DNA of 32,000 nt from an uncultured bacterium (GTDB taxonomy: Bacteria; Margulisbacteria; WOR-1; CAVSGV01), in assembly GCA_963699255.1 (NCBI GenBank), contig OY969425.1, forward strand, positions 1,738,856 through 1,770,855, in the 5' to 3' direction. Of this stretch, positions 593 through 28,878 are shown one piece after another (position 1 is the first letter of the stretch; each line of letters starts with the position of its first letter). The notes beneath the pieces are model-generated. The model was not told the origin of the DNA. It did no database searches and saw only the letters and a list, made by a program, of their open reading frames with translations. The translations under genes were made by a program, and so were the position numbers.

Positions 593-3500
593 TCAATTAT
601 TTTTTATCGCTTTCTTTCTCAAGATCACTTTACTGCCGGCCAGAACTATAATAGAATACATTCCGGCAGCTGCCCCGGAGCCATCCCACGTTTGAGAGTA
701 AACTCCCGCCTGTTGATTTTTCTGGTTCTGTGTCCATACAACATTGCCCAGAGCGTTGCAGATCGTTATCGTTACATCGCTCGTGCTTTCAAGGTTATAT
801 ACGATATTGAGATTGCCTGTAAAAGGATTCGGATAAATACTATTCAGCTTGGTTGTGGGGTAGCCCGCAATTATCCCATCGCTGTGACCAGCTAAGCTCC
901 ACAGGCCGGCTCCATCTTTGGCCTCTACATGGAAATAATATGTAACGCCTTCGGTCAGGGAAAGACCGGTCACGGTCACATCGGTATTTGTTCCGGCAGA
1001 AGTCCAGTTTATGATCTTTCCATTTTCCGGATCGGTTGGATCGGTCGATATCGTATATATATATTCTGTTACTCCTGATTCCGGGTCGGAAGAAGACCAG
1101 GCGGCATGGAACTCTGATAACGATGTGGTATATGTCCCATCATCTGTGACGACAGGCGTTGTTGGAGGCGTAGTGTCAACGGTTATCCCATCGCTGTGGA
1201 CGATGTCGCTCATCTTGCCAACTCCATTCACAGCTCTTACATGGAAATAGTAGGTTTTTCCGTTGGCCAGGTCAAGCCCTTTTGCGGTTATTTTGGTGGC
1301 ATCGGGCCCGACGGAGGTCCAGGGCAGAGCATTTTCAGCCATCCCGATCATCGGGTCATTTGGATCTGTTGATATGGCATACTCATATCCTGTTATGCCC
1401 GATTCATTATCAAAAGAAGGAGACAGAGTGGCGTCGAGCTCGGTTGAAGAGCTGGTGTATTCTCCGCTATCAGTGACAGCCGGGTCTGATGGGGGAGTGG
1501 TGTCAACAATGCCGATTTGTAAGCCGTCGCTGCTGCCGACTTCGCTCCACATGCCGGCTCCGTCTTTTGCCTTAACATGGAAATAGTAAGATTTTGTGCC
1601 GGATAAGGATAGATTATCCAGGGTTACCTGGGTATTTGTTCCGGCAGATGTCCAGGTTACGAGATTCCCGATATCCGGATCATTTGGATCGGTCGATATG
1701 GAATACATATATTCTGTCACACCTGATTCTGGATCGGAAGAAGACCAGGCTCCCTTGAGCGTGGCCGTAGGGCCGGATTTTTGTACCATGCCGTTGACAA
1801 CAGGCTTTGTAGGAGGCGTAATGTCGACTGTTATGCCGTCGCTGTGACCGGGGACGCTAAATTGGCCTGCTCCGTTCTTGGAGATCACATGGAAATAGTA
1901 AGTCTTGCCTTCCTCTAAGTTAAGGTCGGACAGGGTTATTTCGGTATCAGTTCCGGCAGATGTCCAGGGTACGATATTTTCAGGGTCCCCGATCTTCGGA
2001 TCATCCGGGTCGGTCGATACAGCATACCAATATCCTGTCACACCCGATTCATCATCTGAAGAGGACCATGTGGCATGAAGATCGGAAGATGTAGTATATT
2101 TCCCGTCGTCGGTGACATTGGGCTGTGATGGGAGTGTAGTGTCAACTTTTATCCCATCGCTGTGAACGATGTGGCTTGCCAGTCCTTCTCCATTTATGGC
2201 CTTTACATGGAAATAATAGGTTTTCCCGTTGGTCAAGTTAAGGTTGGTCGCGTTTATGTCGGTGGTATTAGGTCCGAGGGGAGTCCACTCCACGACATTG
2301 CCGGTATCCGGATCAAGCGGATCGGTAGATATTGAATATTGATATTCCTTTATTTCCGAATCCGGATCGGAAGCGGGAGACAATGCGGCATGCAGCTCGG
2401 ATGAAATGATAGTGTATACCCCGTCATCCGTTACAGCCGGGTCTGTAGGAGGAGTCGTATCCGGCGATTTAACCAGGTCTTTATAAACATTAACAAAGTT
2501 GCCTGACAGGAGCAGGGCCGCAAAACTCGCCAGAGATTGATTGTAATATAAATTCGCTACCCCTGTTTCGCTCGTATTGCCCCAGTAACCGCCGTTCGCC
2601 GCAGTCGCGTATTGAGAGAAATTGTTCTCAAATTCCGTATTAAAGGCAGACTTATAAACGGGCGATCCGCTTACCATAGCACCTGTTGCCCACATACCTG
2701 CGGTTATTTCGCTGTGCCATGCGCCCTCATTACTGGTGTAGGGAGTGCCATCCATTTTGTAAAGGATCGAATTTGCCGCTGCCGCAGCTTCGCTTCCATA
2801 TCTGCCTGTAAGGTTATTTTTCCCGTTCGTGCAATACTGGACTGCTCTCGGGTCATTGAACCAGATGGCATCAACTGCCATCATCCATGGAGTTCTTATC
2901 GCGTCGTTCCACATGTCAGCGCCATTGCTTAATGGGCCGGTAGTGCCGTACTGGCTGATCCCTCCGGTTTTGGTGTCCATCAGATCCGGGCTTAGACCGT
3001 TAGAATACCCTTGGCTTGATTGAAGGGTCGTAAAACATTGATCCACAACGGTTTTCCAGTCGTGGAAGGTTGCCTGATAGTATTGGAAGGTCTTTAGGGC
3101 AGCCGTAAAGAAATATGAAGGATTGGCCGCGTCCTTGCTAACCCAGCCGTCCCCGGGCATTAAATATTTTTTCAAGCCAACATTATCAACATCATTAGCA
3201 TATATATTATTGATAAGGTCTTGCGCTTTGCCGCTGTAATTATTGTCTGTGTCTGACCAGCAGCCGTGTTTGACAAGGGTGTCCGCGAATATCAGGGCGA
3301 GGGTGATGAAGATGTCGCCGTCAGTGGCGGATGTCGCGTCGAGAACATTATCGCCGGACTTGTCGACCGTGGCTGCGAAAAGGCCTTTACCGTCCTTATT
3401 GTGCATTTTTGCGTATGCGGCGGTCAGGATCTTATCGAAATATGTCTGGTCGCTGTTGTAAATGGCAAGAAGAAGTCCGTATCCCTGTGCTTCGGAGGTT

Positions 3501-6500
3501 GAACCTTCAGTATCAGGGGAGCCGTTGTTCCCCAATTGCGGGTTGTGGACGAGGCCCGATGTATATGCGTCGATGAAATTCGTTTTATAATTCGCCCATG
3601 TGCCGCCTATCTTGTCCTTGTAATCGCTGCCCGCTGTCGGATAGTCCGCCGAATAACACAGGAAATACAACGATCCAACCGTGTCATTCACCGTGATCCC
3701 GTCGCTGTTGCCGACATTGCTCCACATATTGGCTCCGTTCTTGGCCTTTACATGGAAGTAATAGGTTGTTCCGTTGGTCAGGGAAAGTCCGGTCTTGGTT
3801 ACTTGAGTATCTGTTTGGACAGAAGTCCAGTCAACTATCTTTCCATTCTCCGGGTCAGTTGGATCTGTTGATATGGAATACTGATATTCTGTTATGCCTG
3901 AATCCGGATCGGAAGAAGACCATGAGGCATGGAGCTGGGTTGAATAGTTCGTATATATTCCATCATCGTAGACAATAGGATCTGTAGGTGGAGTGGTGTC
4001 AACGGCAACCGTGATCCCGTCGCTGCTGCCAATATTGCTCACCAGGCCGGCCCCGTCTTTGGCTTTTACATGGAAGTAATAGGTTGTGCCATTGGTCAGG
4101 GAAAGTCCGGTCCTGGTTACTTGGGTATCTGTTTGGACAGGGGTCCAGGGTACGATGTTCCCGGTATCCGGATCGGTCGGGTCGGTGGATATGGAATACT
4201 GATATTCTGTAACACCTGATTCCGGATCTGAAGAAGACCATGAAGCGTGGAGCTGGGATAATGAGCCTGTAGATACTCCATCATCGATAACAACAGGATC
4301 TGTAGGAGGTGTGGTGTCAACGGTTATCCCGTCGCTGCTGCCGACATTGCTCCACTGGCCGGCTCCGTCTAACGCCTTTATATGGAAATAGTAGGTTTGG
4401 CCATTGGTTAAATTAAGGTTGCTTGCGGTTATGTCGGTATCAGTGCCGGCGGGAGTCCAGGGCAAAATGTTCCCGGTATCCGGATCGGTAGGATCGGTGG
4501 ATATGGAATACTGATATTCTGTAACGCCTGATTCCGGGTCTGAAGAAGAGTATGTGACATGGAGCTGGGATAAAGATGTAGCATATTTCCCATCATCATT
4601 GACAATAGGATCTGTAGGAGGTGTATCGTCAACCATTATTCCATCGCTGTTGGCAACATTGCTCCACAGGCCGGCTCCGTTCTTGGCCTTTACATGGAAA
4701 TAGTAGGTTTGGCCATTGGTTAAATTAAGGTTGCTTGCGGTTATTTCGGTATTCGTATCGGCGGTAGTCCAGGGTACGATGTTCCCGATAGTTGGATCGG
4801 TAGGATCGGTCGATATGGAATACTGATATTCTATTACGCCTGATTCCTTATCGATCGAAGGAGACCATGTGGCATGGAGCTGGGATAAAGAAAGGGTGTA
4901 TACCCCATCATCGGTGACGGCCGGATCTGAAGGGGGAGTTGTATCTGCCATCATAACCACATCTTTGTAAACATTGACAAAGTTCCCTGACAGGAGCAGA
5001 GCTGCAAAACTCGCCAGAGATTGATTGTAATAGTATTTTCCTACTCCGGGCCAGTTGCCCCAGTAACCGCCGTTCGCCGCGGTCGCATTCTGGGAAAAAT
5101 TGTTCTCAAATTCTGTATTGAAGGCGGACTGATAAACTGGCGATCCGCTTACCATAGCGCCGGTTGCCCACATACCTTCGGTCAATTCATTGTGGAATGC
5201 GCCGTCGCCATCTCCGTATGGAGTGCCGTTCATGTCGTAAAGAATTGCCTTTGACGCTGCCGTTGTTTCATCGCCATAGGAGCATGTAAGGAAAATCCTC
5301 CCGTTCTGCAAATACTCATCGGCTCTTTTGTCATTGAACCATATCTTATCAAGTGTCATCATCCATGGACCCCTTATCCCGTCGTACCACATATGATAGC
5401 CATTATCTGATGCACCTGCTGGGCCGGTATGGCCGTATTGGCTTATCCCTCCGGCTCTGGTGCACATATCCGGGGTTAAGCCGTTGGAATATCCGTCGGT
5501 CGATTGAAGGGTCGTGTAGCATTGATCGACAACGGGTTTCCAGTCGTGGAAGTTCGCCTGGTAGAATTGGAAGGTCTTTAAGGCAGCCGTGAAGAAATAT
5601 GAAGGATTGGCGGCATCCTTGCCGGTCCAACCATCCCCGGGCATCAGATACTGCCCGCCATCAACGTCGTTCGCGTATATGTTGTCGATAAGGTTCTGCG
5701 CTTTGCTGCCGTAATCATTGCCTGTGTCTGACCAGCAGCCTTGTTTGATAAGTGTATCCGCAAATATCAGGGCAAGGGTGATGAAGATATCGCCGTCAGT
5801 GGTGGATGTTGCGTCGAGAACATTATCGCCGGACATGTCAACCGTGGATGCAAAGAGGCCTTTTCCGTCCTTATCGTGCATTTTTGCGTATGCGGCGGTC
5901 AGGATCTTATCGAAATAGGTCTGGTCGCTATTATAAATGGCAAGAAGAAGTCCGTAGCCTTGCGCTTCGGAGGTTGAGCCTTCAGTATCAGGGGACCCAT
6001 TGTCTCCCAATTGCGGGTTGTGGACCAGGCCCGATGCATATGCGTCAATGAAATTCGTTTTATAATTCGCCCATGTGCCGCCTATCTTGTCCTTGTAATC
6101 GCTGCCTGCTGTCGGATAGTTCGCCGAATAACACAGGTAATACAATGGTGTTGTTATGTTATTCGCCGTGATCCCGTCGCTGTGGCCGACATTGCTCCAT
6201 AGATCGGATCCGTTCTTGGCCTTTACATGGAAGTAATAGGTAGTTCCATTGGTCAGTGTGAGCCCGGTTGCGGTCACCTGGGCATCAGTCCCTGTAGAAG
6301 TCCAGGGCACGATGTTCCCGGTATCCGGATCGGTCGGATCGGTCGATATGGAATACTGATATTCTGCAATGCCCGAATCCGGATCGGAAGAAGACCATGA
6401 GGCATGGAGCTGGGTTGCAGAGCTGGTAGTTGCCCCATCATCGGTAACGACAGGATCTGTAGGGGGTGTCAGATCAAAATTCGTAGTGATCCCATCGCTG

Positions 6501-8056
6501 CTAACGACATTACTCCACAGGCCGGCTCCGTTCTTGGCCTTTACATGGAAATAATAGGTCGTTCCGTTGGTCAGGGAAAGTCCGGTCTTGGTCACTTGAG
6601 TATCTGTTTGGACAGAAGTCCAGGGGACTATGTTCCCTGTGTCCGGATCGGTCGGATCGGTCGATATTGAATACTGATATTCTGCAATGCCTGATTCCGG
6701 GTCGGAAGAAGACCATGTAGCATGGAGCTGGCTTGGAGATGCTGTATTTGCTCCATCGTCAGTAACAATAGGGTCTGTAGGTGGAGTTGTATCCGGCGGC
6801 ACCATAAGGTCGTTGTAAACATTAACAAGGTTCCCGGACATGAGCAAAGCGGCAAAACTCGCCAGAGATTGATTGTAATATTCACTTCCTTCCCCGGACC
6901 AGTTGCCGTTGCCCCAGTATCCGCCGGTTGCCGCGGTCGCGTATTGGGAGAAATTGTTTTCAAATTCCGCATTGAAGGCGGATTTGGTATTTGGCCGTCC
7001 ACTTCCCATAGCGCCGGTCCCCCACATACCCGCGGTCATTTCACTGTGCCATGCGCCGTCACCATTGGTATATGGAGTTCCATTCATGTCATATAAAATT
7101 GCATTTGACGCTGCCGATTGTGCTGCCGAGTTGTCATCAGTATCAGTACCTGCAAGAAAGGTCATTCCGTTCTGGCAATACTGGACCGCTCTTGGATCTT
7201 TGAACCAGATGGCATCAAGTGCCATCATCCATGGAGTCCTTATCCCGTCGTACCACATATGATAGCCATTGTCTGATGGGTATGATGGGCCGGTAGTGCC
7301 ATATTGGCTTATCCCTCCGGCTCTTGTGCACAGATCCGGGCTCAGGCCGTATAAGTAGCCGTCGTATCCATCGGGATTCACCGCTTGAAGTGTCATATAG
7401 CATTGATCCACAACGGGATCCCAGTCATGGAAGTTTTTCTGGTAGTTTTTAAAGGTTTTTAAGGCAGCCGTGAAGAAGTAGGAAGGATTGGCCGCATCCT
7501 TGCTGCTCCATCCATCACCGGGCATAAGATATTTTCCGTTATCAACGTCGTTAGCGTATATGTTGTCGATAAGGTCTTGCGCTTTGCTGTCGTAATTGTT
7601 GCTTGTATCCGACCAGTAGCCTTTTTGTACAAGGATATCCGCGAATATCAGGGCGAGGGTGATGAAGGTGTCGCCGTCAGTGGCAGAGGCATAGCTGGAA
7701 TTATTCAGGTTACCGTTTATATCGACTACGGAGGCGAACAACCCTTTTCCGCTACTGCTGTTATCATGCATTTTCGCGTAGACAGCGGTCAGTATCTTAT
7801 CGAAATAGATCTGGTCATTATTGTAAAGGGCTAGAAGAAGTCCATAGCCCTGTCCTTCTGAGGTCGCGCCTTGGGTCTCATCGAAGCCGACAGTGGCCGG
7901 ATCATCCGGCAACTGCGGGTTGTGGACCAGGCCGGTGGTATAGGCGTCAATGAAATTCTTCTTATAATTCGCCCATGTGCCGCTTACCTTGTTTTTATAA
8001 TCGCTGCCCGCGGACGGGTAGCTAGCCGAATAAGGCAGAAAATACAATGGACCCAT
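593..8056 (-). CDS. Giant multidomain glycoside hydrolase: three GH8-like catalytic domains, eleven FN3-like modules, one C-terminal YPNPF sorting/FlgD-Ig-like domain (2,487 aa)
   Basis: Longest ORF in the window. The start is fixed by an in-frame TAA 9 nt upstream of the ATG and an AAGGGGG Shine-Dalgarno 4 nt upstream. GH8 hallmarks occur three times: TSE(G/A)QGYGLLLA, (A/T)TDGD-FITLALIFA (close to the GH8 signature A-[ST]-D-[AG]-D-x2-[IM]-A) and WYDGIR-PWMM. There are eleven (T/S)YYFH(V/I)-type modules (consensus TYYFHVKAKNGAG). The tail reads IYPNPFTGNLNIVY...QTWDGSGAAAGMYSIIV. Confidence 0.9.
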   Translation of the reverse strand: MGPLYFLPYSASYPSAGSDYKNKVSGTWANYKKNFIDAYTTGLVHNPQLPDDPATVGFDETQGATSEGQGYGLLLALYNNDQIYFDKILTAVYAKMHDNSSSGKGLFASVVDINGNLNNSSYASATDGDTFITLALIFADILVQKGYWSDTSNNYDSKAQDLIDNIYANDVDNGKYLMPGDGWSSKDAANPSYFFTAALKTFKNYQKNFHDWDPVVDQCYMTLQAVNPDGYDGYLYGLSPDLCTRAGGISQYGTTGPSYPSDNGYHMWYDGIRTPWMMALDAIWFKDPRAVQYCQNGMTFLAGTDTDDNSAAQSAASNAILYDMNGTPYTNGDGAWHSEMTAGMWGTGAMGSGRPNTKSAFNAEFENNFSQYATAATGGYWGNGNWSGEGSEYYNQSLASFAALLMSGNLVNVYNDLMVPPDTTPPTDPIVTDDGANTASPSQLHATWSSSDPESGIAEYQYSISTDPTDPDTGNIVPWTSVQTDTQVTKTGLSLTNGTTYYFHVKAKNGAGLWSNVVSSDGITTNFDLTPPTDPVVTDDGATTSSATQLHASWSSSDPDSGIAEYQYSISTDPTDPDTGNIVPWTSTGTDAQVTATGLTLTNGTTYYFHVKAKNGSDLWSNVGHSDGITANNITTPLYYLCYSANYPTAGSDYKDKIGGTWANYKTNFIDAYASGLVHNPQLGDNGSPDTEGSTSEAQGYGLLLAIYNSDQTYFDKILTAAYAKMHDKDGKGLFASTVDMSGDNVLDATSTTDGDIFITLALIFADTLIKQGCWSDTGNDYGSKAQNLIDNIYANDVDGGQYLMPGDGWTGKDAANPSYFFTAALKTFQFYQANFHDWKPVVDQCYTTLQSTDGYSNGLTPDMCTRAGGISQYGHTGPAGASDNGYHMWYDGIRGPWMMTLDKIWFNDKRADEYLQNGRIFLTCSYGDETTAASKAILYDMNGTPYGDGDGAFHNELTEGMWATGAMVSGSPVYQSAFNTEFENNFSQNATAANGGYWGNWPGVGKYYYNQSLASFAALLLSGNFVNVYKDVVMMADTTPPSDPAVTDDGVYTLSLSQLHATWSPSIDKESGVIEYQYSISTDPTDPTIGNIVPWTTADTNTEITASNLNLTNGQTYYFHVKAKNGAGLWSNVANSDGIMVDDTPPTDPIVNDDGKYATSLSQLHVTYSSSDPESGVTEYQYSISTDPTDPDTGNILPWTPAGTDTDITASNLNLTNGQTYYFHIKALDGAGQWSNVGSSDGITVDTTPPTDPVVIDDGVSTGSLSQLHASWSSSDPESGVTEYQYSISTDPTDPDTGNIVPWTPVQTDTQVTRTGLSLTNGTTYYFHVKAKDGAGLVSNIGSSDGITVAVDTTPPTDPIVYDDGIYTNYSTQLHASWSSSDPDSGITEYQYSISTDPTDPENGKIVDWTSVQTDTQVTKTGLSLTNGTTYYFHVKAKNGANMWSNVGNSDGITVNDTVGSLYFLCYSADYPTAGSDYKDKIGGTWANYKTNFIDAYTSGLVHNPQLGNNGSPDTEGSTSEAQGYGLLLAIYNSDQTYFDKILTAAYAKMHNKDGKGLFAATVDKSGDNVLDATSATDGDIFITLALIFADTLVKHGCWSDTDNNYSGKAQDLINNIYANDVDNVGLKKYLMPGDGWVSKDAANPSYFFTAALKTFQYYQATFHDWKTVVDQCFTTLQSSQGYSNGLSPDLMDTKTGGISQYGTTGPLSNGADMWNDAIRTPWMMAVDAIWFNDPRAVQYCTNGKNNLTGRYGSEAAAAANSILYKMDGTPYTSNEGAWHSEITAGMWATGAMVSGSPVYKSAFNTEFENNFSQYATAANGGYWGNTSETGVANLYYNQSLASFAALLLSGNFVNVYKDLVKSPDTTPPTDPAVTDDGVYTIISSELHAALSPASDPDSEIKEYQYSISTDPLDPDTGNVVEWTPLGPNTTDINATNLNLTNGKTYYFHVKAINGEGLASHIVHSDGIKVDTTLPSQPNVTDDGKYTTSSDLHATWSSSDDESGVTGYWYAVSTDPDDPKIGDPENIVPWTSAGTDTEITLSDLNLEEGKTYYFHVISKNGAGQFSVPGHSDGITVDITPPTKPVVNGMVQKSGPTATLKGAWSSSDPESGVTEYMYSISTDPNDPDIGNLVTWTSAGTNTQVTLDNLSLSGTKSYYFHVKAKDGAGMWSEVGSSDGLQIGIVDTTPPSDPAVTDSGEYTSSSTELDATLSPSFDNESGITGYEYAISTDPNDPMIGMAENALPWTSVGPDATKITAKGLDLANGKTYYFHVRAVNGVGKMSDIVHSDGITVDTTPPTTPVVTDDGTYTTSLSEFHAAWSSSDPESGVTEYIYTISTDPTDPENGKIINWTSAGTNTDVTVTGLSLTEGVTYYFHVEAKDGAGLWSLAGHSDGIIAGYPTTKLNSIYPNPFTGNLNIVYNLESTSDVTITICNALGNVVWTQNQKNQQAGVYSQTWDGSGAAAGMYSIIVLAGSKVILRKKAIKNN
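596..860 (-). other. C-terminal sorting-type beta-sandwich domain (T9SS type-A CTD / FlgD-Ig-like), approximate bounds
   Basis: YPNPF motif, alternating hydrophobic strands, a WDG...G.Y motif and a basic C-terminal end. Assigned from remembered family consensus, not a search. Confidence 0.6.
860..2470 (-). repeat. Five tandem ~100-aa FN3-like modules (modules 7-11), approximate bounds
   Basis: Repeated pattern TTPP(T/S)DP-VTDDG...LHA.WS.SD.ESG..EY.Y.ISTDP.DP..G....WTS.G..T..T...L.L..G.TYYFHV.A..GAG..S..G.SDGI.VD. Confidence 0.75.
2470..3680 (-). other. GH8-like catalytic domain, copy 3 (approximate bounds)
   Basis: Begins GSLYFLCYSADYPTAGSDYKDK. Contains STSEAQGYGLLLAIYNSDQ, SATDGDIFITLALIFAD and WNDAIRTPWMMAVD. 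Ends NFVNVYKDLVKSPD. Confidence 0.75.
3680..4950 (-). repeat. Four tandem FN3-like modules (modules 3-6), approximate bounds
   Basis: Same module consensus as 860-2470, with four TYYFH(V/I)KA motifs. Confidence 0.75.
4950..6150 (-). other. GH8-like catalytic domain, copy 2 (approximate bounds)
   Basis: Begins TPLYYLCYSANYPTAGSDYKDK. Contains STSEAQGYGLLLAIYNSDQ, STTDGDIFITLALIFAD and WYDGIRGPWMMTLD. Ends NFVNVYKDVVMMAD. Confidence 0.75.
6150..6800 (-). repeat. Two tandem FN3-like modules (modules 1-2), approximate bounds
   Basis: Same module consensus. The second module is nearly identical in DNA to the last module of the neighbouring paralog. Confidence 0.75.
6800..8056 (-). other. GH8-like catalytic domain, copy 1 (approximate bounds)
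   Basis: MGPLYFLPYSASYPSAGSDYKNK..., ATSEGQGYGLLLALYNNDQ, SATDGDTFITLALIFAD, WYDGIRTPWMMALD. Ends NLVNVYNDLMVPPD. Confidence 0.8.
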
Positions 8057-8312
8057 ATTACCCCCTTACAATATATTATCGTCACTATCTTTGCGAAATT
8101 TCACTGTTTTGATGAAATTAATATGGAGATATTTGGATATGGAGTGACGCATTCCGGCACCAGGGTTCCTCTTAGATAGGGGCGAAAAAGGTCAATATTA
8201 TGAGGTTTAATGGCAGAAAAAGCGAAAAGCGCGGGAAGCGCATTATGTTCCGTCGGTGACGGCAGGGCACATCCGCCATATGTTAACTGTGGATCCATCG
8301 TATCAGCGCCAA

Positions 8313-10467
8313 TTATTTTTTTACGACCTTTACCGTTGAGAAGGTATTGTTGCCGGCCTGGATCTGAACGTAATATATTCCGGGAGCCACGTTCGTACCA
8401 TCCCAGGGAACTTCCTGATCACCTGCCGATTGTCTGCCCGGCTCAAGAGTACTTACGACCCTGCCGAAACTGTTGTAGATCTTTATCGTTACCTCGCTTT
8501 CACTTCCGAGCTGATATTTGATCCTGATACCGGATTGGAACGGGTTTGGATAGCAAGCAGACGGTTGAGTTGTTTTGGAGGTTTCGGATATAAGCGTAGG
8601 AATATTTACTGTTATCCCGTCGCTGTGGCCGACAGTGCTCCACTGGCCCGCTCCGTTTTTGGCCATCACATGGAAGTAATAGGTGGTTCCGTTGGTCAGT
8701 GTGAGCCCGGTTGCGGTCACCTGGGCATCAGTTCCTGTAGAAGTCCAGGGCACAATGTTCCCGGTATCCGGATCGGTCGGGTCGGTTGATATTGCATACC
8801 TATATTCTGTTATTCCCGATTCATCATCAGAAGAAGACCATGAGGCATGGAGCTCGGATAAAGAGACGGTGCTTTCTCCATCATCAATGACAATAGGATC
8901 CTGAAGGGGCTGTATCGTCAAAGGTTATTCCATCGCTGTGGCCTACGTTACTTGCTAGCCCGGCTCCGTTTATGGCTTTTACATGGAAGTAATAGGTTGT
9001 TCCGTTGGTCAGTGTGAGCCCAGTTGCGGTTATGTCGGTATTTGTTCCTGCAGATGTCCAGGGGACGATGTTTCCTTTGTCCGGATCGATCGGATCGGTC
9101 GATATGGAATACTGATATTCTGTAATGCCTGATTCTGCATCAGAAGAAGACCATGAAGCATGGAGCTGGGATGTAATAATAGTATATGTTCCATCATCGG
9201 TAACAACAGGGTCTGTAGGCGGAGTTGTATCCGGCGCTTTAACCAGGTCGTTGTAAACATTGACAAGGTTCCCCGCCATGAGCAAGGCTGCAAAACTCGC
9301 CAGAGATTGATTGTAATAGTAATTCCCTTCCCCGGAGTAGTTGCCCCAGTAGCCGCCATTTTCCGCAGTCGCGTATTGAGAAAAATTGTTCTCAAATTCA
9401 GAATTAAATGCGGATTGAAAAGCTGATAGTCCGCTTCCCATAGCGCCGGTTCCCCACATACCTGTGGTCATTTCGCTATGAAATGCACCATCCGTGTTCC
9501 CGTATGCAGTGCCGTTCATTGCATAATGTATCGCGTTTGACGCTGCCGCTGTTTCGCCCCCATATAGACCGTTAAGGAAGTTCATTCCGTTCTGGCAATA
9601 TGTGACGGCTCTTTGGTCTTTGAACCAGATGGCATCAAGTGCCATCATCCATGGAGTTCTTATTGCCTGGTACCACATATCATAGCCATTGCCCGAAGGG
9701 TTATCGCCGCCCAAACCGTAAGTATTAATGCCTCCGGCTCTTGTGCACCAATCCGGGCTCAGGCCGTATAAGTAGCCGTCGTATCCATCTGGATTCACCG
9801 CTTGAAGGGTCGTATAGCATTGGTCTACCACGGTATCCCAGTCATGGAAGTTTTTCTCATAGTTTTTAAAGGTTTTTAAGGCAGCCGTAAAGAAGTAGGA
9901 AGGATTGGCCGCATCCTTGCCGCTCCAGCCGTCACCGGGCATCAAATATTTCCCGCCATCAACGTCATTAGCATAGATGTTGTCAATAAGGGCCTGCGCT
10001 TTACTGCCGTAATCGTTGCTTGTGTCTGACCAGTAGCCTTTTTGTACAAGGATATCCGCGAATATCAGGGCGAGGGTGATGAAGGTGTCGCCGTCAGTGG
10101 CGGATGAGTAATCGGAAACATTCAGATTCCCGGACTTATCGACGACGGACACGAAGAGGCCTTTTCCGTCCTTATCGTGCATTTTTGCATAAGTAGCGGT
10201 CAGGATGTTATCAAAGTAAGCCTGGTCGCCATTGTAAAGGGCAAGAAGAAGTCCGTAGCCCTGACCTTCAGAAGTCGCGCCTTGGGTCTCATCAAAGCCG
10301 ACAGTGACCGGATCGTCCGGCAACTGCGGGTTGTGGACCAGGCCGGTGGTATAGGCGTCAATGAAATTCTTCTTATAATTCGCCCATGTGCCGCTTACCT
10401 TGTTTTTATAATCGCTGCCCGCGGACGGGTAGCTAGCCGAATAAGGCAGAAAATACAATGGACCCAT
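8313..10467 (-). pseudogene. One-unit paralog (GH8 - module - module - YPNPF tail) interrupted by a +1 frameshift near 8900
   Basis: ORFs 8884..10467 and 8313..8921 overlap and together reproduce the unit architecture. Their frames differ by one base. Hand alignment with the paralogous junctions (..DTTPPSDP.V.DDG) indicates one extra C in GGATCCTG (8896-8903). Deleting it restores ..FDDTAPSDPIVIDDG... Confidence 0.75.
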
Positions 10468-10569
10468 ATTACCCCCTTACGATATGTTATCGTCCCTTTC
10501 TTTTTAAAATTTCATTATTGGCGGAAAATATTTTCATATATAATAAGACAGATATGATATAATCCATAA

Positions 10570-15480: not shown

Positions 15481-17011
15481 ATTATCGGATCTGTTAAAGG
15501 TCAGAAGGGCCAAGCTCGAAGAGCTGAGAGCGAAAAATATTAATCCTTATCCGTACCGCTTTGAAAGGGATTCGACCTCGGGCGCCGTCCTTGAAAAGTA
15601 TAAGGACCTTAAAGCCGAAGAGGTCAGTCCAGAGGTCGTTGTGCTTGCCGGAAGGCTTATGACCAGACGGGGACACGGAAAAGCCTCCTTTGCCAACATT
15701 CAGGATGGGGCAGGGAAGATCCAGATATACGCCAAGCTTGATGTCATGGGCCAGCAAAAATACGAGCTTTTTGAAAAACTGGATATCGGCGACTTCATAG
15801 GGGTAAGGGGGCCGGTCTTCAAGACCAGGACGGGGGAGACCACGGTAAGGGTCAAAGACTTCGAGCTTCTTTCAAAATCCCTTCATCCTCTTCCTGAAAA
15901 ATGGCACGGCTTGACGGACAAGGAGCTGCGTTACAGGGAAAGATATGTTGACCTGATAGTCAATCACGACGTCAAGGAGGTTTTCGTCAAGAGAAGCAGG
16001 ATAATCACCGAGGCCAGGAGCTTCCTTATATCGAAAGGCTACCTGGAAGTTGAGACCCCTGTCCTTCACATCCAGCCCGGCGGGGCGGCCGCCAGGCCTT
16101 TTGAGACATACCATAACGCGCTTGATATGGATCTGTACCTCAGGATAGCCCTTGAGCTTCATCTGAAACGCTTGATAGTCGGAGGTTTCGAGAAGGTGTT
16201 TGAGATCGGCAGGGTCTTCAGGAACGAGGGAATATCCTTCAAGCACAATCCGGAATACACCATGCTGGAGCTTTATGAGGCTTACTCGGATTACAATGAC
16301 ATAATGAAGCTGACGGAAGAAATGGTGTCTTCCATAGCCAATAAAGTTCTCGGGACAACAAAGATCAAATATAAAGACATTGATATTGATTTTAAGACGC
16401 CGTGGGCCAGGATCACCCTGCATGACGCGCTGAAGAAATACGCCAATATCGACATAAACACGGACGAAAAAGGCTTGAGGGCCATCGCGAAGCAAAAAGA
16501 ACTGGAGGGTTACATGGAACTGCCGGTGGGCAAGATCATCAACCTTCTTTATGATACTTTTGTTGAAGCCAAGATCATCCAGCCCACGTTCATAATCGAT
16601 TATCCGGTGGAAACCTCTCCTCTGGCAAAGAGGAAAAGGGATAATCCTCTCCTTGTGGAGAGGTTCGAGGTCATTGTCGCCGGAATGGAGCTGGCGAACG
16701 CTTTCTCCGAACTGAACGATCCAGTGGACCAGAGGGAAAGGTTCCAGGAGCAGGTCGAGGCGCGCAAGGCGGGGGACGATGAAGCGGAATCGATGGATGA
16801 GGATTTCCTGAGGGCCCTTGAGTACGGGATGCCCCCGACGGGAGGCCTGGGAATAGGGATAGACAGGCTGGTCATGCTTTTAACGGGACAACCGTCGATA
16901 CGGGATGTCATCCTGTTCCCGCACATGAGGCCGATCGAGATAAAAGAAACGGATGCGAAACCGGAGGAGATAAAGGTACTGGATGATAATAACAGAAAAA
17001 AAAGAATATAA
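15470..17011 (+). CDS. lysS: Lysyl-tRNA synthetase, class II
   Basis: 513 aa with class II motifs ([25 protein letters not shown]; [14 protein letters not shown]). Confidence 0.92.
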
Positions 17012-17627
17012 GAAGATACTCGAAAGCCTGAAGGGCATGGACAGTATATATGTAATAGGCTGCGGCAGGTGCGCCACGTCATGCTCGACCGGCGGGGAAG
17101 AGCAGGTGTTCGACATTATCGGGAAGCTGAAAAAGGATGGCAAGAAAATCGCGGGCTCATATGTCATTGAAGCTCCCTGCGATGAAAGACTTGTGCTCAA
17201 GTTCTCAAGGGCCGAGAAGTCAAAGCTTGAAAGATCCGATGCCCTGCTTGTCCTGGGATGCGGGGCGGGGGTGCAGACCGTGTCGGATGTGGTGAAGCTT
17301 CCGGCTTATCCGGCGCTCGAGTCGGTGTTCCTCGGAAAAACGAAGAACCTGGGGAGATTCTACGAGTTGTGCGTCATGTGCGGGGACTGTGCGCTTGAGG
17401 AAACCGGCGGCATCTGTCCTGTTGCCAGATGCTCAAAGCACCTGCTGAACGGCCCGTGCGGAGGATCCCATAAAGGGAAATGCGAGGTGGACCAGAACCT
17501 TGACTGCGCGTGGTACCTGATATTCGAGCGCCTCAAGGAGCTGAAGCAGTTCGACCGGATAAAGAAATACCAGAAGCCGAAAGATTACTCAAAGGCCATA
17601 AGGCCGAGGAAAGTTGAATTAAGATGA
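16983..17627 (+). CDS. metV: Methylenetetrahydrofolate reductase C-terminal-domain (MetV-like) Cys-rich protein
   Basis: Cys clusters [36 protein letters not shown] and NGPCGG. Stop overlaps the metF start (ATGA). Overlaps the lysS 3' end by 29 nt. Confidence 0.7.
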
Positions 17628-18493
17628 CGTTCAGCGAAGCATTAAAGAACAAGGATTTCGTCGTTACAGCCGAACTTTCTCCTCCAAAAGGGGTGGAACT
17701 GGCGGATGTCCTTAAAAAAGCGGATCTTCTGAAAGGGAAGGTGGACGGCGTCAATGCGACGGATAACCAGGTCGCCGTTCTGCATCTAAGCTCTGTCGCC
17801 TTCTGCGCGTTACTTAAGCAGAAAGGCCTCGATGCGATCCTCCAGATGAACTGCAGGGACAGGAACGCTCTGGCGATGCAGGCGGACCTTCTGGGCGCTT
17901 ATGCCCTCGGGATAAGGAATGTCCTGGCGATAACGGGAGATTACCCGAAGAAATCGCTCCACCATGTGGTAAGGCCTGTATTCGACATCGATTCGGTCCA
18001 GCTGATCAAGCTGATAAATGACATGAATAAAGGGATAGATTTTGCCGGAGAGGAGCTGGCCGGCGCTCCAAGCTTTACCGTGGGAGGGGTCGTCAATCCG
18101 GGAGCGGACCCCATTGAAGGGCAGCTAGTGAAGCTAAGGAAAAAGATCGATGCGGGAGCGCAGTTCATCCAGACCCAGATAGTATATGACATTGACGGAT
18201 TCAAGAAATTCAGGGACAAGACAAAGGACATAAAAGTTAAATTCCTTCTCGGCATCCTTCCGATACGCTCGGCAAAGATGGCGCAGAACATCCTGAACAT
18301 TCCCGGCGTCCACATACCGAAAAAGATCCTGGAGAGGATAGGGGAGTCAAAAGATCCCGTTCAGGAGGGCATTGATATTTCGGCCGAGATCATTAACGGT
18401 CTCAAGGGCTACATCGACGGGGTGCATTTCATGACACTGAATAATGTGGAGGTCATTCCGGATATCCTGGCTTTAATCAAACTCGGAACCTGA
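17624..18493 (+). CDS. metF: 5,10-methylenetetrahydrofolate reductase
   Basis: 289 aa with MetF-like TIM-barrel pattern (VTAELSPPKG, NCRDRN, LAITGD, AGAQFIQTQ). Confidence 0.85.
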   Translation: MTFSEALKNKDFVVTAELSPPKGVELADVLKKADLLKGKVDGVNATDNQVAVLHLSSVAFCALLKQKGLDAILQMNCRDRNALAMQADLLGAYALGIRNVLAITGDYPKKSLHHVVRPVFDIDSVQLIKLINDMNKGIDFAGEELAGAPSFTVGGVVNPGADPIEGQLVKLRKKIDAGAQFIQTQIVYDIDGFKKFRDKTKDIKVKFLLGILPIRSAKMAQNILNIPGVHIPKKILERIGESKDPVQEGIDISAEIINGLKGYIDGVHFMTLNNVEVIPDILALIKLGT

Positions 18494-19952: not shown

Positions 19953-19974
19953 AAGAAGCGGTTAATTTAGAAAA

Positions 19975-20047
19975 TGGACCTGAGCGGGATCGAACCGCTG
20001 ACCTCCTGCTTGCAAAGCAGGCGTTCTCCCAACTGAACTACAGGCCC
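19975..20047 (-). tRNA. tRNA-Ala (anticodon UGC)
   Basis: The reverse complement GGGCCTGTAGTTCAGTTGGGAGAACGCCTGCTTTGCAAGCAGGAGGTCAGCGGTTCGATCCCGCTCAGGTCCA folds by hand into a cloverleaf. It has the G3:U70 identity pair and anticodon loop CTTTGCAAG. No encoded CCA. Confidence 0.9.
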
Positions 20048-20196
20048 ATGCCCCTGCGGGGAATTACCAATCACCAAATTCCAGATCCCAAGCAAATCCC
20101 AAATTCAAAATCCCAATTCCCAATTTGACATTGGGATTTTGTCATTCATTTGACATTTGTCATTGGTCATTTGTCATTCTCCGCTTCCTGGCGGAG
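20048..20196 (-). repeat. 149-nt tRNA-Ile/tRNA-Ala spacer filled with heptamer arrays and an 11-bp hairpin
   Basis: Plus strand reads ...TTTGTCA TTGGTCA TTTGTCA (20156-20176) and CCCAAAT/CCCAATT-type words (20086-20125). Perfect stem AAAATCCCAAT (20107-20117) / ATTGGGATTTT (20130-20140). Confidence 0.8.
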
Positions 20197-20273
20197 TGGT
20201 GGGCCACATTGGAATCGAACCAATGACCTTACCCTTATCAGGGGTACGCTCTAGCCAACTGAGCTAGTGGCCC
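20197..20273 (-). tRNA. tRNA-Ile (anticodon GAU), CCA encoded
   Basis: The reverse complement GGGCCACTAGCTCAGTTGGCTAGAGCGTACCCCTGATAAGGGTAAGGTCATTGGTTCGATTCCAATGTGGCCCACCA gives a 7/4/5/5 cloverleaf by hand with anticodon loop CTGATAA. Confidence 0.9.
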
Positions 20274-20358
20274 AAATTTCAGGTAAATTATTTTATCAGA
20301 TTTGATTGATAATTCAAACCTTATATAATAGAATCAGCCGAACGAAAGGGGGAAGATC

Positions 20359-20766
20359 ATGAAAAAAATTATCATCGGAGGCTTGCTTGCGGGCGCTTTC
20401 ATCCTGCTTATGGGTATGCTGTTCGGCGCGATGTCCGCTGAAATGTACAAGCTGTCACCGAAGGTCTTCTGGAAGCCGATGGGAGGGGACTGGTTCACGA
20501 GGGTCCTGATATACGATTTTGCCTCGGGCCTGATATTTGCCTGGGTATTCTCGATCGTGAAAGGATCAATCCCCGGTCCGGGGCTGGCAAAAGGCCTCAT
20601 GTTCGGGATCATGATGTTCCTGATAGGACCGTTCCACTCGGTATGGATGGCCTATCTCGTTATAGCTATCAGGGCAAAGCTGCTGGCCGTGTGGATGTTG
20701 AACGGCCTTGTGAACTACGTGTTTTCAGGCCTCATTTTTGAGCTGATCGACGAAAAAATATCCTGA
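20359..20766 (+). CDS. Hypothetical polytopic membrane protein (135 aa)
   Basis: Four hydrophobic segments. AAGGGGGAAG SD lies just upstream of the ATG. Confidence 0.7.
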   Translation: MKKIIIGGLLAGAFILLMGMLFGAMSAEMYKLSPKVFWKPMGGDWFTRVLIYDFASGLIFAWVFSIVKGSIPGPGLAKGLMFGIMMFLIGPFHSVWMAYLVIAIRAKLLAVWMLNGLVNYVFSGLIFELIDEKIS

Positions 20767-20775
20767 AATAAGCGC

Positions 20776-20803
20776 TTGACAAAGTCAGGCCAGATAGTAT
20801 AAT
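20776..20803 (+). promoter_or_regulatory. Consensus sigma-70-type promoter (TTGACA - 16 nt - TATAAT) upstream of the 23S rRNA
   Basis: TTGACA at 20776-20781 and TATAAT at 20798-20803, read directly. Confidence 0.7.
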
Positions 20804-20864
20804 TACCAGGCTTTATGCAGGAAAACTCAACTTAAAGTTTTTCTAACGCATCAGGTAGGCGAAC

Positions 20865-20889
20865 AAACGCACTTGATGTGCGTTTTTTT
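20865..20889 (+). terminator. Intrinsic-terminator-like hairpin plus T-run inside the 23S leader
   Basis: AAACGCAC / ttgat / GTGCGTTT followed by TTTTT (7-8 bp stem, T-run 20883-20889), about 80 nt downstream of the promoter. Confidence 0.5.
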
Positions 20890-20918
20890 GTCTTTATTAT
20901 GGGCCGAATTGCGGCCGT

Positions 20919-20939
20919 GATCTTTGAAAATTAAATAGG
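20919..20939 (+). promoter_or_regulatory. rRNA leader box GATCTTTGAAAATTAAATAGG
   Basis: Near-identical to 31907-31927. Resembles the TCTTTGAAAACTAAACA leader motif remembered from Bacillus rrn operons. Confidence 0.55.
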
Positions 20940-21034
20940 TTATTTTCACCGGGCGAGCCGCCCAGGTGGGAATGACCATGTCAAAGTAAGAACAAAGCGT
21001 CTTAGCGAACGATAGTTTGTATAATTAGCGGAAT

Positions 21035-23976
<2,942 letters not shown>

Positions 23977-24184
23977 TACCGTTAATTATACACGCTCTCC
24001 TTCGGGGGGCGAAAATTGATATCGATCACTAATGATAGTTCTTTGACATATATAGTTCCTTGCAAGCCGGACTTCATAAGAATGTAATAAGATGAAGCGA
24101 GGGGAGTAGGTCCGACGAGAAGTCGGACCGTTGAGGGGCTTTGCCCCTCAAGGCCGGAACGTAATAAATTAGTTATTTGCAAAT

Positions 24185-24299
24185 GTGGGTGACCATACCG
24201 GGAGTGTCCCACCTGTTCCCATTCCGAACACAGCAGTGAAATCTCCCAGGGCCGATGGTAGTTACTGGGCAACTGGTAGTGAGAGTAGGACGTCGCCCC
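24185..24299 (+). rRNA. rrf: 5S ribosomal RNA
   Basis: GTGGGTGACCATACCGGGAG...CCCATTCCGAACACAGCAGTGAAA...GAGAGTAGGACGTCGCCC. The ends pair as helix I. Boundaries are good to about 2 nt. Confidence 0.9.
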
Positions 24300-24344
24300 T
24301 TTTTCCTCCTTCGCCCCTAAAGGGCTTCGGAGGACTCGTGAAAG

Positions 24345-28557: not shown

Positions 28558-28654
28558 AATATTTACCTTGTATGAATTATATACTATTATTGACTTGTCT
28601 TTAAATCATTTATTAATATATTGCAGAATGCACTTTGAACTCTTCCTTTCTGGG

Positions 28655-28745
28655 GAGGCGAAGGAAGGGTGATAGCAGAAGTCAGAAGGCAGAAGTAGGG
28701 GGCGCATTTCTAACTTCAAACTTCTAATTTCTTACTTTTTATTCT
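28655..28745. repeat. Mirrored heptamer arrays: purine arm (..GTGATAG CAGAAGT CAGAAGG CAGAAGT AGGGGGC) then pyrimidine arm (GCATTTC TAACTTC AAACTTC TAATTTC TTACTTT TTATTCT)
   Basis: Read directly in the divergent intergenic region between the 403-aa gene and the ORF6N gene. The arms are imperfectly complementary (CAGAAGT vs ACTTC). Confidence 0.75.
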
Positions 28746-28878
28746 CTGGGCTCTTTCCCGTGTCTAAACCCACTGCTAGTGTCGAAGAAAATGACATCAA
28801 AAGACCCATCTTAAGAAGAATCCAGTTGCACTATTCAGGCAAGAAAATTGCTGTTACTTCTTATATAAGGAGGACTAT

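What the first reader, a model, noticed from the sequence alone, without database searches (positions are those of the whole stretch)
593..8056. Three complete GH8 catalytic domains in a single 2,487-aa polypeptide
Reading the minus-strand ORF N to C gives this order:
- GH8-like domain (~8056-6800), then 2 modules;
- GH8-like domain (~6150-4950), then 4 modules;
- GH8-like domain (~3680-2470), then 5 modules;
- one YPNPF-type tail.

All three GH8 copies keep the Glu of SE(G/A)QGYG, the Asp pair of TDGD and the (Y/N)D.IR.PW block, so none looks degenerate. Three same-family catalytic domains in one chain, interleaved with eleven ~100-aa beta-sandwich-like modules (consensus ..SQLHASWSSSDPESGI.EYQYSISTDPTDPDTGNIVPWT...LTNGTTYYFHVKAKNGAGLWSNVG.SDGITVDTTPPTDP), is an architecture I do not recognise as described. 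GH8 enzymes act on beta-1,4 glucans, chitosan and xylan, and on cellulose processing during biosynthesis, so this could be a processive multi-site surface enzyme.
Basis: partly seen in the sequence, partly recalled or inferred. Interest (0 to 1): 0.7.

Follow-up and report, generated by a model that had tools for sequence, protein, structure and literature searches.

The report
Giant enzyme with three GH8 glucanase domains
One intact 2,487-residue gene from an uncultured Margulisiibacteriota bacterium strings three apparently active GH8 (cellulase-type) domains between eleven fibronectin-like spacers and a secretion-type tail; this layout is very rare for GH8, and the protein oddly has no export signal at its start.

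Summary
ORF 593-8056 (-) is intact. It reads GH8 + 2 fn3-like modules + GH8 + 4 modules + GH8 + 5 modules + a T9SS type-A C-terminal domain (CTD).

- **Catalytic residues.** All three GH8 copies keep the residues of C. thermocellum CelA (E95/D152/D278).
- **Selection.** All copies evolve under purifying selection (dN/dS 0.16-0.31).
- **Assembly.** The copies have diverged (dS 0.5-0.8; exact repeats inside the gene are 59 bp or shorter), so an assembly artefact is unlikely.
- **Origin.** The organism is a Margulisiibacteriota. The same ahcY-ileS slot holds one GH8-CTD gene in two relatives and a 2-GH8 gene in a third, so the locus looks like a stepwise expansion.
- **Rarity.** Among 160 GH8-carrying loci and the top 150 of 4,248 GH8-like representatives, only three other proteins have two GH8 domains and none has three.
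- **Kind.** Homo-multicatalytic CTD-bearing cellulases are already known (GH5x6 in rumen Bacteroidetes). This is a new variant, not a new kind.
- **Anomaly.** The whole clade starts directly at the GH8 fold with no Sec signal peptide, and the phylum is not known to have a T9SS. The export route is therefore open.

Most likely it is an extracellular multivalent endo-beta-1,4-glucanase. Substrate and location are inferred, not shown.

The parts
593..8056 (-). Gene B: intact 2,487-aa ORF (267 kDa, pI 4.2) with 3 GH8 domains, 11 fn3-like modules and a CTD
6800..8056 (-). GH8 domain 1 (aa 1-419). It begins at the start codon. Catalytic E67, D127, D270. 'Type I' loops (extra PATVGFDETQG and NPDGYDGYLY segments)
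6152..6799 (-). fn3-like modules 1-2 (aa 420-635) with DTTPPTDP-type linkers
4952..6151 (-). GH8 domain 2 (aa 636-1035). Catalytic E697, D754, D892
3680..4951 (-). fn3-like modules 3-6 (aa 1036-1459)
2468..3679 (-). GH8 domain 3 (aa 1460-1863). Catalytic E1522, D1579, D1718 (MWNDAIR)
866..2467 (-). fn3-like modules 7-11 (aa 1864-2397). This is the old, mutually diverged set, one-to-one orthologous with modules 5-9 of the relative P0003
596..865 (-). C-terminal T9SS type-A-like sorting domain (aa 2398-2487), a 7-strand beta-sandwich
8057..8090 (-). Conserved 5' leader with a Shine-Dalgarno-like AAGGGGG. An in-frame TAA lies 4 codons upstream of the ATG. The same leader precedes gene A and the relative's gene
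8313..10467 (-). Gene A, the upstream paralogue: GH8 + 2 modules + CTD. It has the same signal-less start, is split by a 1-nt G insertion near 8901, and has Gln in place of the catalytic-base Asp (MWYQAIR)

Best explanation
This is a real, intact gene of an uncultured Margulisiibacteriota bacterium. It encodes a 267-kDa multi-headed glycanase.

**Anatomy.** Three CelA-like GH8 (alpha/alpha)6 catalytic domains are joined by rigid runs of fn3-like spacer modules with short Pro/Thr linkers. The chain ends in a T9SS type-A-like C-terminal sorting domain.

**Origin.** It arose by stepwise duplication at one chromosomal slot between ahcY and ileS. Two relatives have a single GH8-CTD gene there. A third has a GH8-2-module-CTD gene plus a 2-GH8 gene. 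Here there is the same pair, with a third GH8 unit added internally.

**Proposed mechanism.** The most likely function is extracellular endo-hydrolysis of a beta-1,4-linked glucan (cellulose-like). The tethered catalytic heads would raise local enzyme concentration and avidity on an insoluble polymer. The N-terminal 'type I' head and the two 'type II' heads differ in loop insertions, which might give them different action patterns.

**Shown:**
- the domain anatomy;
- conserved catalytic residues in all three copies;
- the GH8 fold of copy 1;
- purifying selection on every unit;
- synteny and the expansion series.

**Inferred:**
- the substrate;
- catalytic activity;
- export and any cell-surface attachment through the CTD;
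- any benefit from multivalency.
For: - **Intact ORF and domain calls:**
- **Closest solved structure.** By sequence it is CelA 1CEM (E 1.8e-30), with E95/D152/D278 aligned to E67/D127/D270. All three copies keep these residues.
- **Fold.** The AF2 model of GH8-1 has pLDDT 91.8 and pTM 0.94. Its best Foldseek hits are CelA 1CEM/1IS9/1KWF, with target-normalised TM 0.83.
- **Selection.** dN/dS is 0.16-0.26 for every GH8 comparison and 0.31-0.35 for the two module+CTD comparisons. dS between the three copies is 0.51-0.83.
- **Assembly.** Copies are 60-93% identical at DNA level. The longest exact repeat inside the gene is 59 bp. The only long one (165 bp) is shared by the 5' ends of genes A and B, so a mis-join there could not change either ORF.
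- **Independent relative.** P0003 (JGI, 68% identity) has GH8+4 modules+GH8+5 modules+CTD with the same start, preceded by an intact A-like gene.
- **Synteny series:** L082 and L162 have 1 GH8; L081 has 1+2; the window has 1+3.
- **CTD.** It passes the Pfam and TIGRFAM cut-offs. Profile hits are named T9SS type A sorting domains. The model has 7 strands.
- **Precedents.** T9SS-linked multi-GH5 cellulases and very large GH8 proteins abundant on filter paper in Cytophaga and Sporocytophaga.
Against: - **No signal peptide.** The protein starts at the first residues of the GH8 fold. The maximum 10-residue hydropathy is 0.5, against more than 2 in nearly all other GH8 homologues. An in-frame stop lies 4 codons upstream. 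Residues 1-20 are modelled with pLDDT 93-96 as part of the domain. A T9SS review states that all T9SS effectors have a Sec signal.
- **Lineage.** It is Margulisiibacteriota, not Bacteroidota/FCB, and no paper links it to a T9SS.
- **Context.** The neighbourhood is housekeeping genes, with no sugar-uptake or other CAZyme genes nearby.
- **Specificity.** GH8 also includes chitosanases, xylanases and lichenases, and these appear among the structural matches.
- **No biochemical data** exist for this clade.
Confidence: 0.65

Rival explanations
1. Assembly artefact: a repeat-rich locus was mis-joined or expanded, and the true genome has separate one- or two-GH8 genes.
For: - The locus is internally repetitive.
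- The N-terminal unit resembles gene A: 84% amino-acid identity and 165 identical bases at the 5' end.
- The nearest relative has only two GH8 domains in the long gene.
- Gene A carries a 1-nt indel that could be a sequencing error.
- No read-level data are available.
Against: - Inside gene B the longest exact repeat is 59 bp.
- The three GH8 copies differ by 20-28% in protein, with dS 0.5-0.8 and dN/dS about 0.25. That is long independent evolution under selection, not duplicated reads.
- The module-2 to GH8-2 junction (…ANNITTPLYYLCYSA) has the same form as the other internal junctions, including the Cys variant typical of internal copies.
- The frame is open for 7.4 kb.
- The record's contig is 1.77 Mb.
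Confidence: 0.05
2. The protein is not exported by a T9SS. The CTD-like domain is only an Ig-like fold inherited with the GH8 gene (for example by transfer from a Fibrobacterota-like donor). The enzyme then acts inside the cell, or leaves it by another route such as lysis, vesicles or an unknown signal-less pathway.
For: - No signal peptide is present in the whole nearest clade: P0001, P0003, P0121, P0122, P0123, P0125.
- Margulisiibacteriota is outside the FCB phyla.
- The nearest non-clade GH8 relatives include Fibrobacterota and Chitinispirillaceae.
- Foldseek matches of the CTD model are mostly generic Ig-like domains.
Against: - The CTD is conserved under selection together with the enzyme (dN/dS 0.31-0.35).
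- It keeps type-A motifs (YPNPF, WDG, G.Y, terminal K-rich strand).
- A PorV/PorQ-family-like gene sits 13 nt upstream of the single-GH8-CTD orthologue in relative L162 (E 1e-18, but below the curated cut-off).
- Acidic fn3 arrays and Pro/Thr linkers are typical of extracellular proteins. P0125 has a long PT-rich linker.
Confidence: 0.25
3. The GH8 domains target something other than plant or algal cellulose. Candidates are the cell's own or a partner's exopolysaccharide (BcsZ/PssZ-like biofilm processing), or chitosan, xylan or mixed-linkage glucan.
For: - The GH8 family holds all these activities, and the structural matches include Rex8A, lichenase 5XD0, chitosanases, xylanases, BcsZ and PssZ.
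- No other CAZyme or transporter genes are nearby.
Against: - Sequence similarity to CelA (E 1.8e-30) is far stronger than to xylanase, Rex8A or BcsZ-type chains (E 1e-5 or weaker).
- The base Asp is at the CelA D278 position (the GH8a pattern, from my own knowledge of the Adachi 2004 subfamilies).
- The BcsZ equivalog score is 156.9 against a cut-off of 299, and that is summed over three domains.
- There is no bcs operon.
Confidence: 0.2
4. The chain is a polyprotein precursor that is cut at the Pro/Thr linkers after export into three separate GH8 enzymes.
For: The regular DTTPPTDP linkers could be protease sites. This is inference only; no tool result supports it.
Against: The same linkers join every fn3 module, not only the GH8 boundaries. 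No protease is encoded nearby. Known multi-GH CTD enzymes are not reported to need cleavage.
Confidence: 0.05

Closest known systems
Clostridium (Acetivibrio) thermocellum endoglucanase CelA / Cel8A (PDB 1CEM, 1KWF)
   Same: GH8 (alpha/alpha)6 fold (target-normalised TM 0.83). It is the best sequence match among solved structures. Acid Glu95, Asp152 and base Asp278 are all conserved in each of the three copies.
   Different: CelA has one catalytic domain, a signal peptide and a dockerin for the cellulosome (own knowledge). Here there are three catalytic domains, fn3 spacers, a T9SS-type CTD and no signal peptide. Identity is only 27-28% in the structural alignment.
T9SS-linked multi-catalytic cellulases of 'Ca. 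Paraporphyromonas polyenzymogenes' / Ca. MH11 (GH5-GH5; ~1,900-aa ORFs with six GH5) - Naas et al. 2018, PMC5831590
   Same: Several catalytic domains of one GH family sit in one polypeptide that ends in a T9SS CTD. The proposed role is attack on insoluble plant polysaccharide.
   Different: Family GH5 rather than GH8, phylum Bacteroidota rather than Margulisiibacteriota, and different spacer content. Signal peptides are expected there, as for all T9SS effectors, and absent here.
P0003, JGI metagenome 3300049914 contig Ga0494770_0000104 (annotated 'endo-1,4-beta-D-glucanase Y')
   Same: This is the closest relative: 68% identity, the same signal-less start, the same 5' leader, the same downstream ileS, five orthologous C-terminal modules, the same CTD, and an upstream A-like paralogue.
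   Different: Two GH8 domains and nine modules instead of three and eleven. Its A-like paralogue is intact.
Large GH8 proteins of Cytophaga hutchinsonii and Sporocytophaga myxococcoides (Taillefer et al. 2018, PMC6247017)
   Same: GH8 domains are embedded in very large polypeptides. The proteins are abundant during growth on filter paper and are predicted extracellular or outer-membrane-located in T9SS-bearing bacteria.
   Different: The paper describes the GH8 domains only as small portions of large polypeptides and does not mention several in one chain. The rest of each protein is of unknown function rather than fn3 arrays.
BcsZ (periplasmic GH8 of the cellulose synthase complex)
   Same: Same CAZy family and fold.
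   Different: BcsZ is a single periplasmic domain with a signal peptide inside a bcs operon. Here the equivalog score is below its cut-off, no bcs genes are nearby, and similarity is much weaker than to CelA.
Other two-GH8 proteins found here: P0126 (3,282 aa, NCBI) and P0153 (1,081 aa, Logan)
   Same: More than one full GH8 domain in one chain.
   Different: They are unrelated lineages and architectures. P0126 has a signal peptide and long runs of DYDNDGDLD-type repeats. P0153 has a Pro/Ala-rich linker between its two GH8 domains and a C-terminal region I did not classify. Both score only 134-183 bits per domain against the profile, and neither has three copies.

Membership tests
CAZy family GH8 | Pfam PF01270 Glyco_hydro_8 match above the gathering score | tested here: met
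   253.9 bits against a cut-off of 24, in 3 stretches. My own GH8 HMM covers positions 1-398 of 399 three times.
CAZy family GH8 | (alpha/alpha)6 barrel fold | tested here: met
   The AF2 model of copy 1 has pLDDT 91.8. Foldseek matches CelA with target-normalised TM 0.83 and E 1.5e-18. Copies 2 and 3 were not modelled; they are 72-73% identical to copy 1.
CAZy family GH8 | Catalytic acid Glu (CelA E95) and Asp (CelA D152) | tested here: met
   E67/E697/E1522 and D127/D754/D1579.
CAZy family GH8 (subfamily GH8a pattern) | Catalytic base Asp at the CelA D278 position | tested here: met
   D270, D892 and D1718 in MW(Y/N)D(G/A)IR. The paralogue gene A has Gln at this position.
CAZy family GH8 | Inverting hydrolysis of beta-1,4-glycans | not testable with these tools
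   Needs enzyme assays.
T9SS type-A cargo protein | C-terminal type-A CTD (PF18962 / TIGR04183) | tested here: met
   40.8 bits (cut-off 27) and 38.9 bits (cut-off 23). Named homologues are T9SS type A sorting domains.
T9SS type-A cargo protein | Seven-strand Ig-like CTD fold | tested here: met
   The AF2 model has pLDDT 87.8 and 7 strands. Foldseek hits include the NucA CTD in the SprA complex (8GLK_D, target-normalised TM 0.74) and PorZ, among many generic Ig-like folds.
T9SS type-A cargo protein | N-terminal Sec signal peptide (stated for all effectors, PMC10202324) | tested here: not met
   There is no hydrophobic N-terminal segment. The start codon is bounded by an in-frame stop and preceded by a conserved SD leader. 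The N-terminus is part of the GH8 fold. The test was heuristic; SignalP was not available.
T9SS type-A cargo protein | T9SS core machinery (SprA/Sov, PorV, PorU, GldKLMN) in the same genome | not testable with these tools
   Only 32 kb of the genome is visible. A sub-threshold PorV/PorQ-like gene lies next to the orthologue in relative L162 (68 bits, cut-off 90). No homologue was found in the window.
T9SS type-A cargo protein | Host in Bacteroidota / FCB group | tested here: not met
   The best named LysRS hits are Ca. Margulisiibacteriota (77%), and Saganbacteria and WOR-1 (65-68%). Synteny over about 13 genes links the window to a Ca. Margulisiibacteriota MAG.
BcsZ (cellulose-synthase endoglucanase) | NCBIfam NF008305 equivalog score and bcs operon context | tested here: not met
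   156.9 bits against a cut-off of 299. The neighbours are ileS, ahcY, lspA, lgt and similar genes.
Fibronectin type III modules | PF00041 match above the gathering score, repeated | tested here: met
   119 bits against a cut-off of 25. The 11 modules are mutually homologous.
Homo-multicatalytic CTD-bearing cellulases (Ca. MH11 type) | Two or more catalytic domains of one GH family plus a T9SS CTD in one ORF | tested here: met
.

The most novel reading that the evidence does not exclude
This Margulisiibacteriota clade exports or displays CTD-tagged proteins without any Sec signal peptide. That would mean a T9SS-like, PorV-assisted sorting route outside the FCB phyla that accepts signal-less cargo. 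The giant, modularly growing GH8 enzymes would be its cargo. The PorV/PorQ-like neighbour in L162 also lacks a signal peptide.
Probability: 0.1. Interest if true: 0.8.

Novelty: new variant of a known kind. Interest (0 to 1): 0.45.

Why it matters
**For enzymology.** It may be the first protein with three GH8 catalytic domains. GH8 was thought to occur almost always singly. The locus also offers a natural series (1, 2 and 3 heads at one orthologous slot) for testing whether tethering identical glycanase heads improves attack on insoluble polymers.

**For microbial ecology.** It points to polysaccharide degradation in an uncultured Margulisiibacteriota lineage.

**For secretion biology.** The signal-less start combined with a T9SS-type tail, in a phylum not known to have a T9SS, is a concrete and testable anomaly.

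Tried and rejected
- **Source contig look-up.** The exact protein was not on record, so the rest of the 1.77-Mb contig could not be inspected for T9SS genes.
- **GTDB representative-genome scan.** The source genome is absent, and the best GH8 hits are only 37% identical.
- **CTD profile search.** It returned only short fragments (175 aa or less). I therefore could not measure how often CTD proteins of this lineage lack signal peptides.
- **Metagenome scan.** It added only one close relative, L082.
- **Literature searches.** Searches for Margulisbacteria with GH8, endoglucanase or T9SS found nothing relevant. A search for 'GH8-GH8', 'two GH8' or 'tandem GH8' mostly hit GH84/GH86 prefixes.
- **tblastn of the L162 PorV-like protein.** No hit in the window or in any fetched locus.
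- **Upstream signal-peptide exon or frameshifted start.** Rejected: a stop lies 4 codons upstream in both A and B, and no signal-like ORF exists in any frame.
- **BcsZ-type role.** Rejected on score and genomic context.
- **Simple fusion of gene A onto a 2-GH8 gene.** Considered less likely than internal duplication. The module-2/GH8-2 junction looks like the other internal junctions. GH8-2 is closest to GH8-3 (80%, dS 0.51).
Full report

Yes. The minus-strand ORF 593..8056 is one uninterrupted frame of 2,487 codons.

- **GH8 domains.** Pfam finds Glyco_hydro_8 in three stretches (253.9 bits, cut-off 24). It also finds fn3-type domains and a C-terminal Por_Secre_tail. NCBIfam adds TIGR04183, the T9SS type A sorting domain. 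An HMM built from the GH8 domains of this protein and its relatives matches three times over essentially its full length (positions 1-398 of 399), at aa 1-419, 636-1035 and 1460-1863.
- **Modules.** A motif scan finds eleven modules arranged 2+4+5, each about 104-106 aa, joined by DTTPPTDP-type linkers. They are 45-85% identical to one another. Tandem Repeats Finder sees 312-318-nt periods.

**2. Are the three GH8 copies intact?**

- **Closest structure by sequence.** It is C. thermocellum CelA (1CEM, E 1.8e-30). In that alignment CelA Glu95 (acid), Asp152 and Asp278 (base) align with E67, D127 and D270 of copy 1.
- **Other copies.** Copies 2 and 3 keep the same residues: E697/D754/D892 and E1522/D1579/D1718.
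- **Model.** An AlphaFold2 model of copy 1 is confident (pLDDT 91.8, pTM 0.94). It superposes best on CelA (target-normalised TM 0.83), ahead of Rex8A, lichenase, chitosanases, xylanases and BcsZ.
- **Selection.** Nei-Gojobori dN/dS is 0.16-0.26 for every GH8 comparison, orthologous or paralogous. It is 0.31-0.35 for the two module+CTD comparisons.

None of the three looks degenerate.

**3. Could it be an assembly artefact?**

This is unlikely.

- The copies are 60-93% identical at DNA level.
- dS between the three GH8 copies is 0.51-0.83.
- The longest exact repeat inside the gene is 59 bp.
- The one 165-bp exact repeat is shared by the 5' ends of this gene and its upstream paralogue. A mis-join there could not alter either ORF.
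- The same protein is recorded on a 1.77-Mb contig in NCBI/ENA.
- An independently assembled JGI relative has the same design with two GH8 domains.

I had no read-level data, so a small residual doubt remains.

**4. Surroundings and origin**

*Gene A.* Directly upstream lies a paralogue, gene A (10467..8313, minus strand), with GH8 + 2 modules + CTD.

- It has the identical first 52 residues and the same 5' leader.
- It is broken by a single extra G near 8901.
- Its catalytic-base Asp is replaced by Gln.

*Neighbourhood.* The rest of the neighbourhood is housekeeping: ileS, ahcY, lspA, lgt, rluD, coaX, lysS, an MTHFR pair and tldD. A 23S-5S rRNA pair follows.

*Organism.* LysRS is 77% identical to a Ca. 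Margulisiibacteriota protein and 65-68% identical to Saganbacteria and WOR-1 proteins. That MAG contig (L162, GCA_042564885.1) is collinear with the window over about 13 genes.

*The ahcY-ileS slot in four genomes:*

| Locus | Content of the slot |
|---|---|
| L082 | one GH8-CTD gene with no modules (520 aa) |
| L162 | a PorV/PorQ-like gene followed by one GH8-CTD gene (540 aa) |
| L081 | GH8-2 modules-CTD gene, plus GH8-4 modules-GH8-5 modules-CTD gene |
| window | the same pair, with a third GH8 unit in the long gene |

*How the long gene grew.*

- The five C-terminal modules are one-to-one orthologous between the window and L081 (55-78%). They are mutually diverged (45-64%).
- The upstream modules are 67-85% alike within a genome, which indicates recent duplication or gene conversion.
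- GH8-2 is closest to GH8-3 (80%), and GH8-1 is closest to gene A's GH8 (84%).
- The module-2/GH8-2 junction has the form of the other internal junctions. I therefore favour internal duplication over an end-to-end fusion of two genes.

**5. How rare is it?**

- **Published survey.** No multi-GH8 was found among 2,117 GH8 proteins in M5nr, and one among 746 in 129 metagenomes (PMC6626019).
- **Representative search.** A profile search of 1.84 billion representative proteins gave 4,248 GH8-like hits. Among the best 150, only P0003 (this protein's relative), P0126 and P0153 have two full GH8 domains. None has three.
- **Fetched loci.** Among 160 GH8-carrying loci fetched from species-representative genomes and metagenomes, only the window and L081 have more than one GH8 in a reading frame.
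- **Caveat.** Only the top 150 representatives were visible to me.

**6. What is known that resembles it?**

- Homo-multicatalytic cellulases ending in a T9SS CTD are described in rumen Bacteroidetes (GH5-GH5, and six GH5 in about 1,900 aa; PMC5831590).
- Cytophaga and Sporocytophaga carry GH8 domains inside very large proteins that are abundant on filter paper and predicted to be extracellular or in the outer membrane (PMC6247017).

The design principle is therefore known. What is new is the family (GH8 in triplicate), the phylum, and the missing signal peptide.

**7. The anomaly**

*No signal peptide in the clade.* Gene B, gene A, P0003, P0122, P0123 and P0125 all begin directly with the first residues of the GH8 fold (MG[PS]LYFLPYSA... 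and similar).

- Their N-termini have no hydrophobic segment, whereas nearly all other GH8 homologues do.
- The start codon is supported by a conserved leader with an AGGGGG Shine-Dalgarno-like motif.
- An in-frame stop lies four codons upstream in A and B.
- Residues 1-20 are modelled at pLDDT 93-96 as part of the domain.
- The internal GH8 copies carry the same segment, which fits a structural rather than a signalling role.

*Why that is odd.*

- The tail is a bona fide type-A CTD by sequence.
- Its model is a seven-strand sandwich.
- A T9SS review states that all effectors carry a Sec signal and that the system belongs to Bacteroidota (PMC10202324).
- I found no paper connecting Margulisbacteria with a T9SS.

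*One lead.*

- In L162 the gene 13 nt upstream of the GH8-CTD orthologue hits the PorV/PorQ family. The match is E 1e-18 and 68 bits, which is below the 90-bit cut-off.
- It ends in ...SKGF and also lacks a signal peptide.
- No homologue is visible in the window.

Because one defining feature (the signal peptide) was tested and not met, I do not file the protein as a T9SS cargo. It looks like one.

**8. Most likely mechanism**

I commit, at about 0.65, to an exported, multivalent CelA-like endo-beta-1,4-glucanase.

- The three heads would be held apart by fn3 stalks. If extended, roughly 11 modules of about 4 nm plus three heads of about 5 nm would reach several tens of nanometres. This is my inference.
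- The N-terminal 'type I' head differs from the two 'type II' heads by loop insertions, which may give them different action patterns.
- The domain anatomy, catalytic residues, fold, selection and evolutionary series are shown.
- Substrate, activity, export, anchoring and any synergy are inferred.
- 'Processive' is not supported by anything here.

**9. Verdict**

This is a real and rare architecture and a new variant of a known kind. It has moderate interest for CAZyme specialists. The more intriguing and currently unresolved question is how a signal-less, CTD-tagged giant enzyme leaves the cell in a non-FCB phylum.

Noticed in passing
window 8313-10467 (-): The upstream paralogue gene A (GH8 + 2 modules + CTD) is split by a 1-nt G insertion (TCAgGATCC, near 8901). 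It has Gln instead of the catalytic-base Asp (MWYQAIR). Its counterpart in relative L081 is intact but has Asn at the CelA-D152 position (SATNGD). Both still show dN/dS of about 0.2. They may be non-catalytic binding paralogues, or a pseudogene in this genome.
   Followed up: partly
L162 4098-4898 (-): In a Ca. Margulisiibacteriota MAG syntenic with the window, a 266-aa gene lies 13 nt upstream of the single GH8-CTD orthologue. It matches the PorV/PorQ family (NF033709, E 1e-18, 68 bits, cut-off 90). It ends in ...SKGF like an outer-membrane barrel and also has no signal peptide.
   Followed up: partly
window 19974-24301: 23S (21036-23977) and 5S (24185-24301) rRNA genes lie on the + strand. 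tRNA-Ile(GAT) and tRNA-Ala(TGC) lie just upstream on the opposite strand. There is no room for a 16S gene between them, so this is an unlinked or rearranged rRNA operon.
   Followed up: no
window 27346-29514: A low-GC island (35-41% against about 49% elsewhere) carries a 403-aa protein matching the PADLOC candidate defence family PDC-S54 (E 1.5e-128). It also carries an ORF6N-domain protein matching PDC-S05. The island sits next to lexA (26653-27234) and a dinB-like polymerase (24956-26239).
   Followed up: partly
window 8057-8090 and 10468-10500; L081 2085-2116: A nearly identical 5' leader (GACGATAAyATATyGTArGGGGGwTAAyATG) precedes genes A and B and the relative's long gene. This suggests a shared promoter-proximal or translational element.
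   Followed up: partly
window 16983-18493 (+): An MTHFR gene is preceded by a separate DUF5981 ('MTHFR C-terminal') gene. From memory, this resembles the MetV/MetF pairing of acetogen-type folate pathways. The pair is conserved in L162 and L163.
   Followed up: no
window 6800-8056 vs 2468-6151 (-): The GH8 copies fall into two loop types. GH8-1, gene A and P0003 GH8-1 carry an extra NPDGYDGYLY-like segment. GH8-1, gene A and both P0003 copies also have a longer PATVGFDETQG segment. GH8-2 and GH8-3 lack both. This may reflect different subsite architecture.
   Followed up: no
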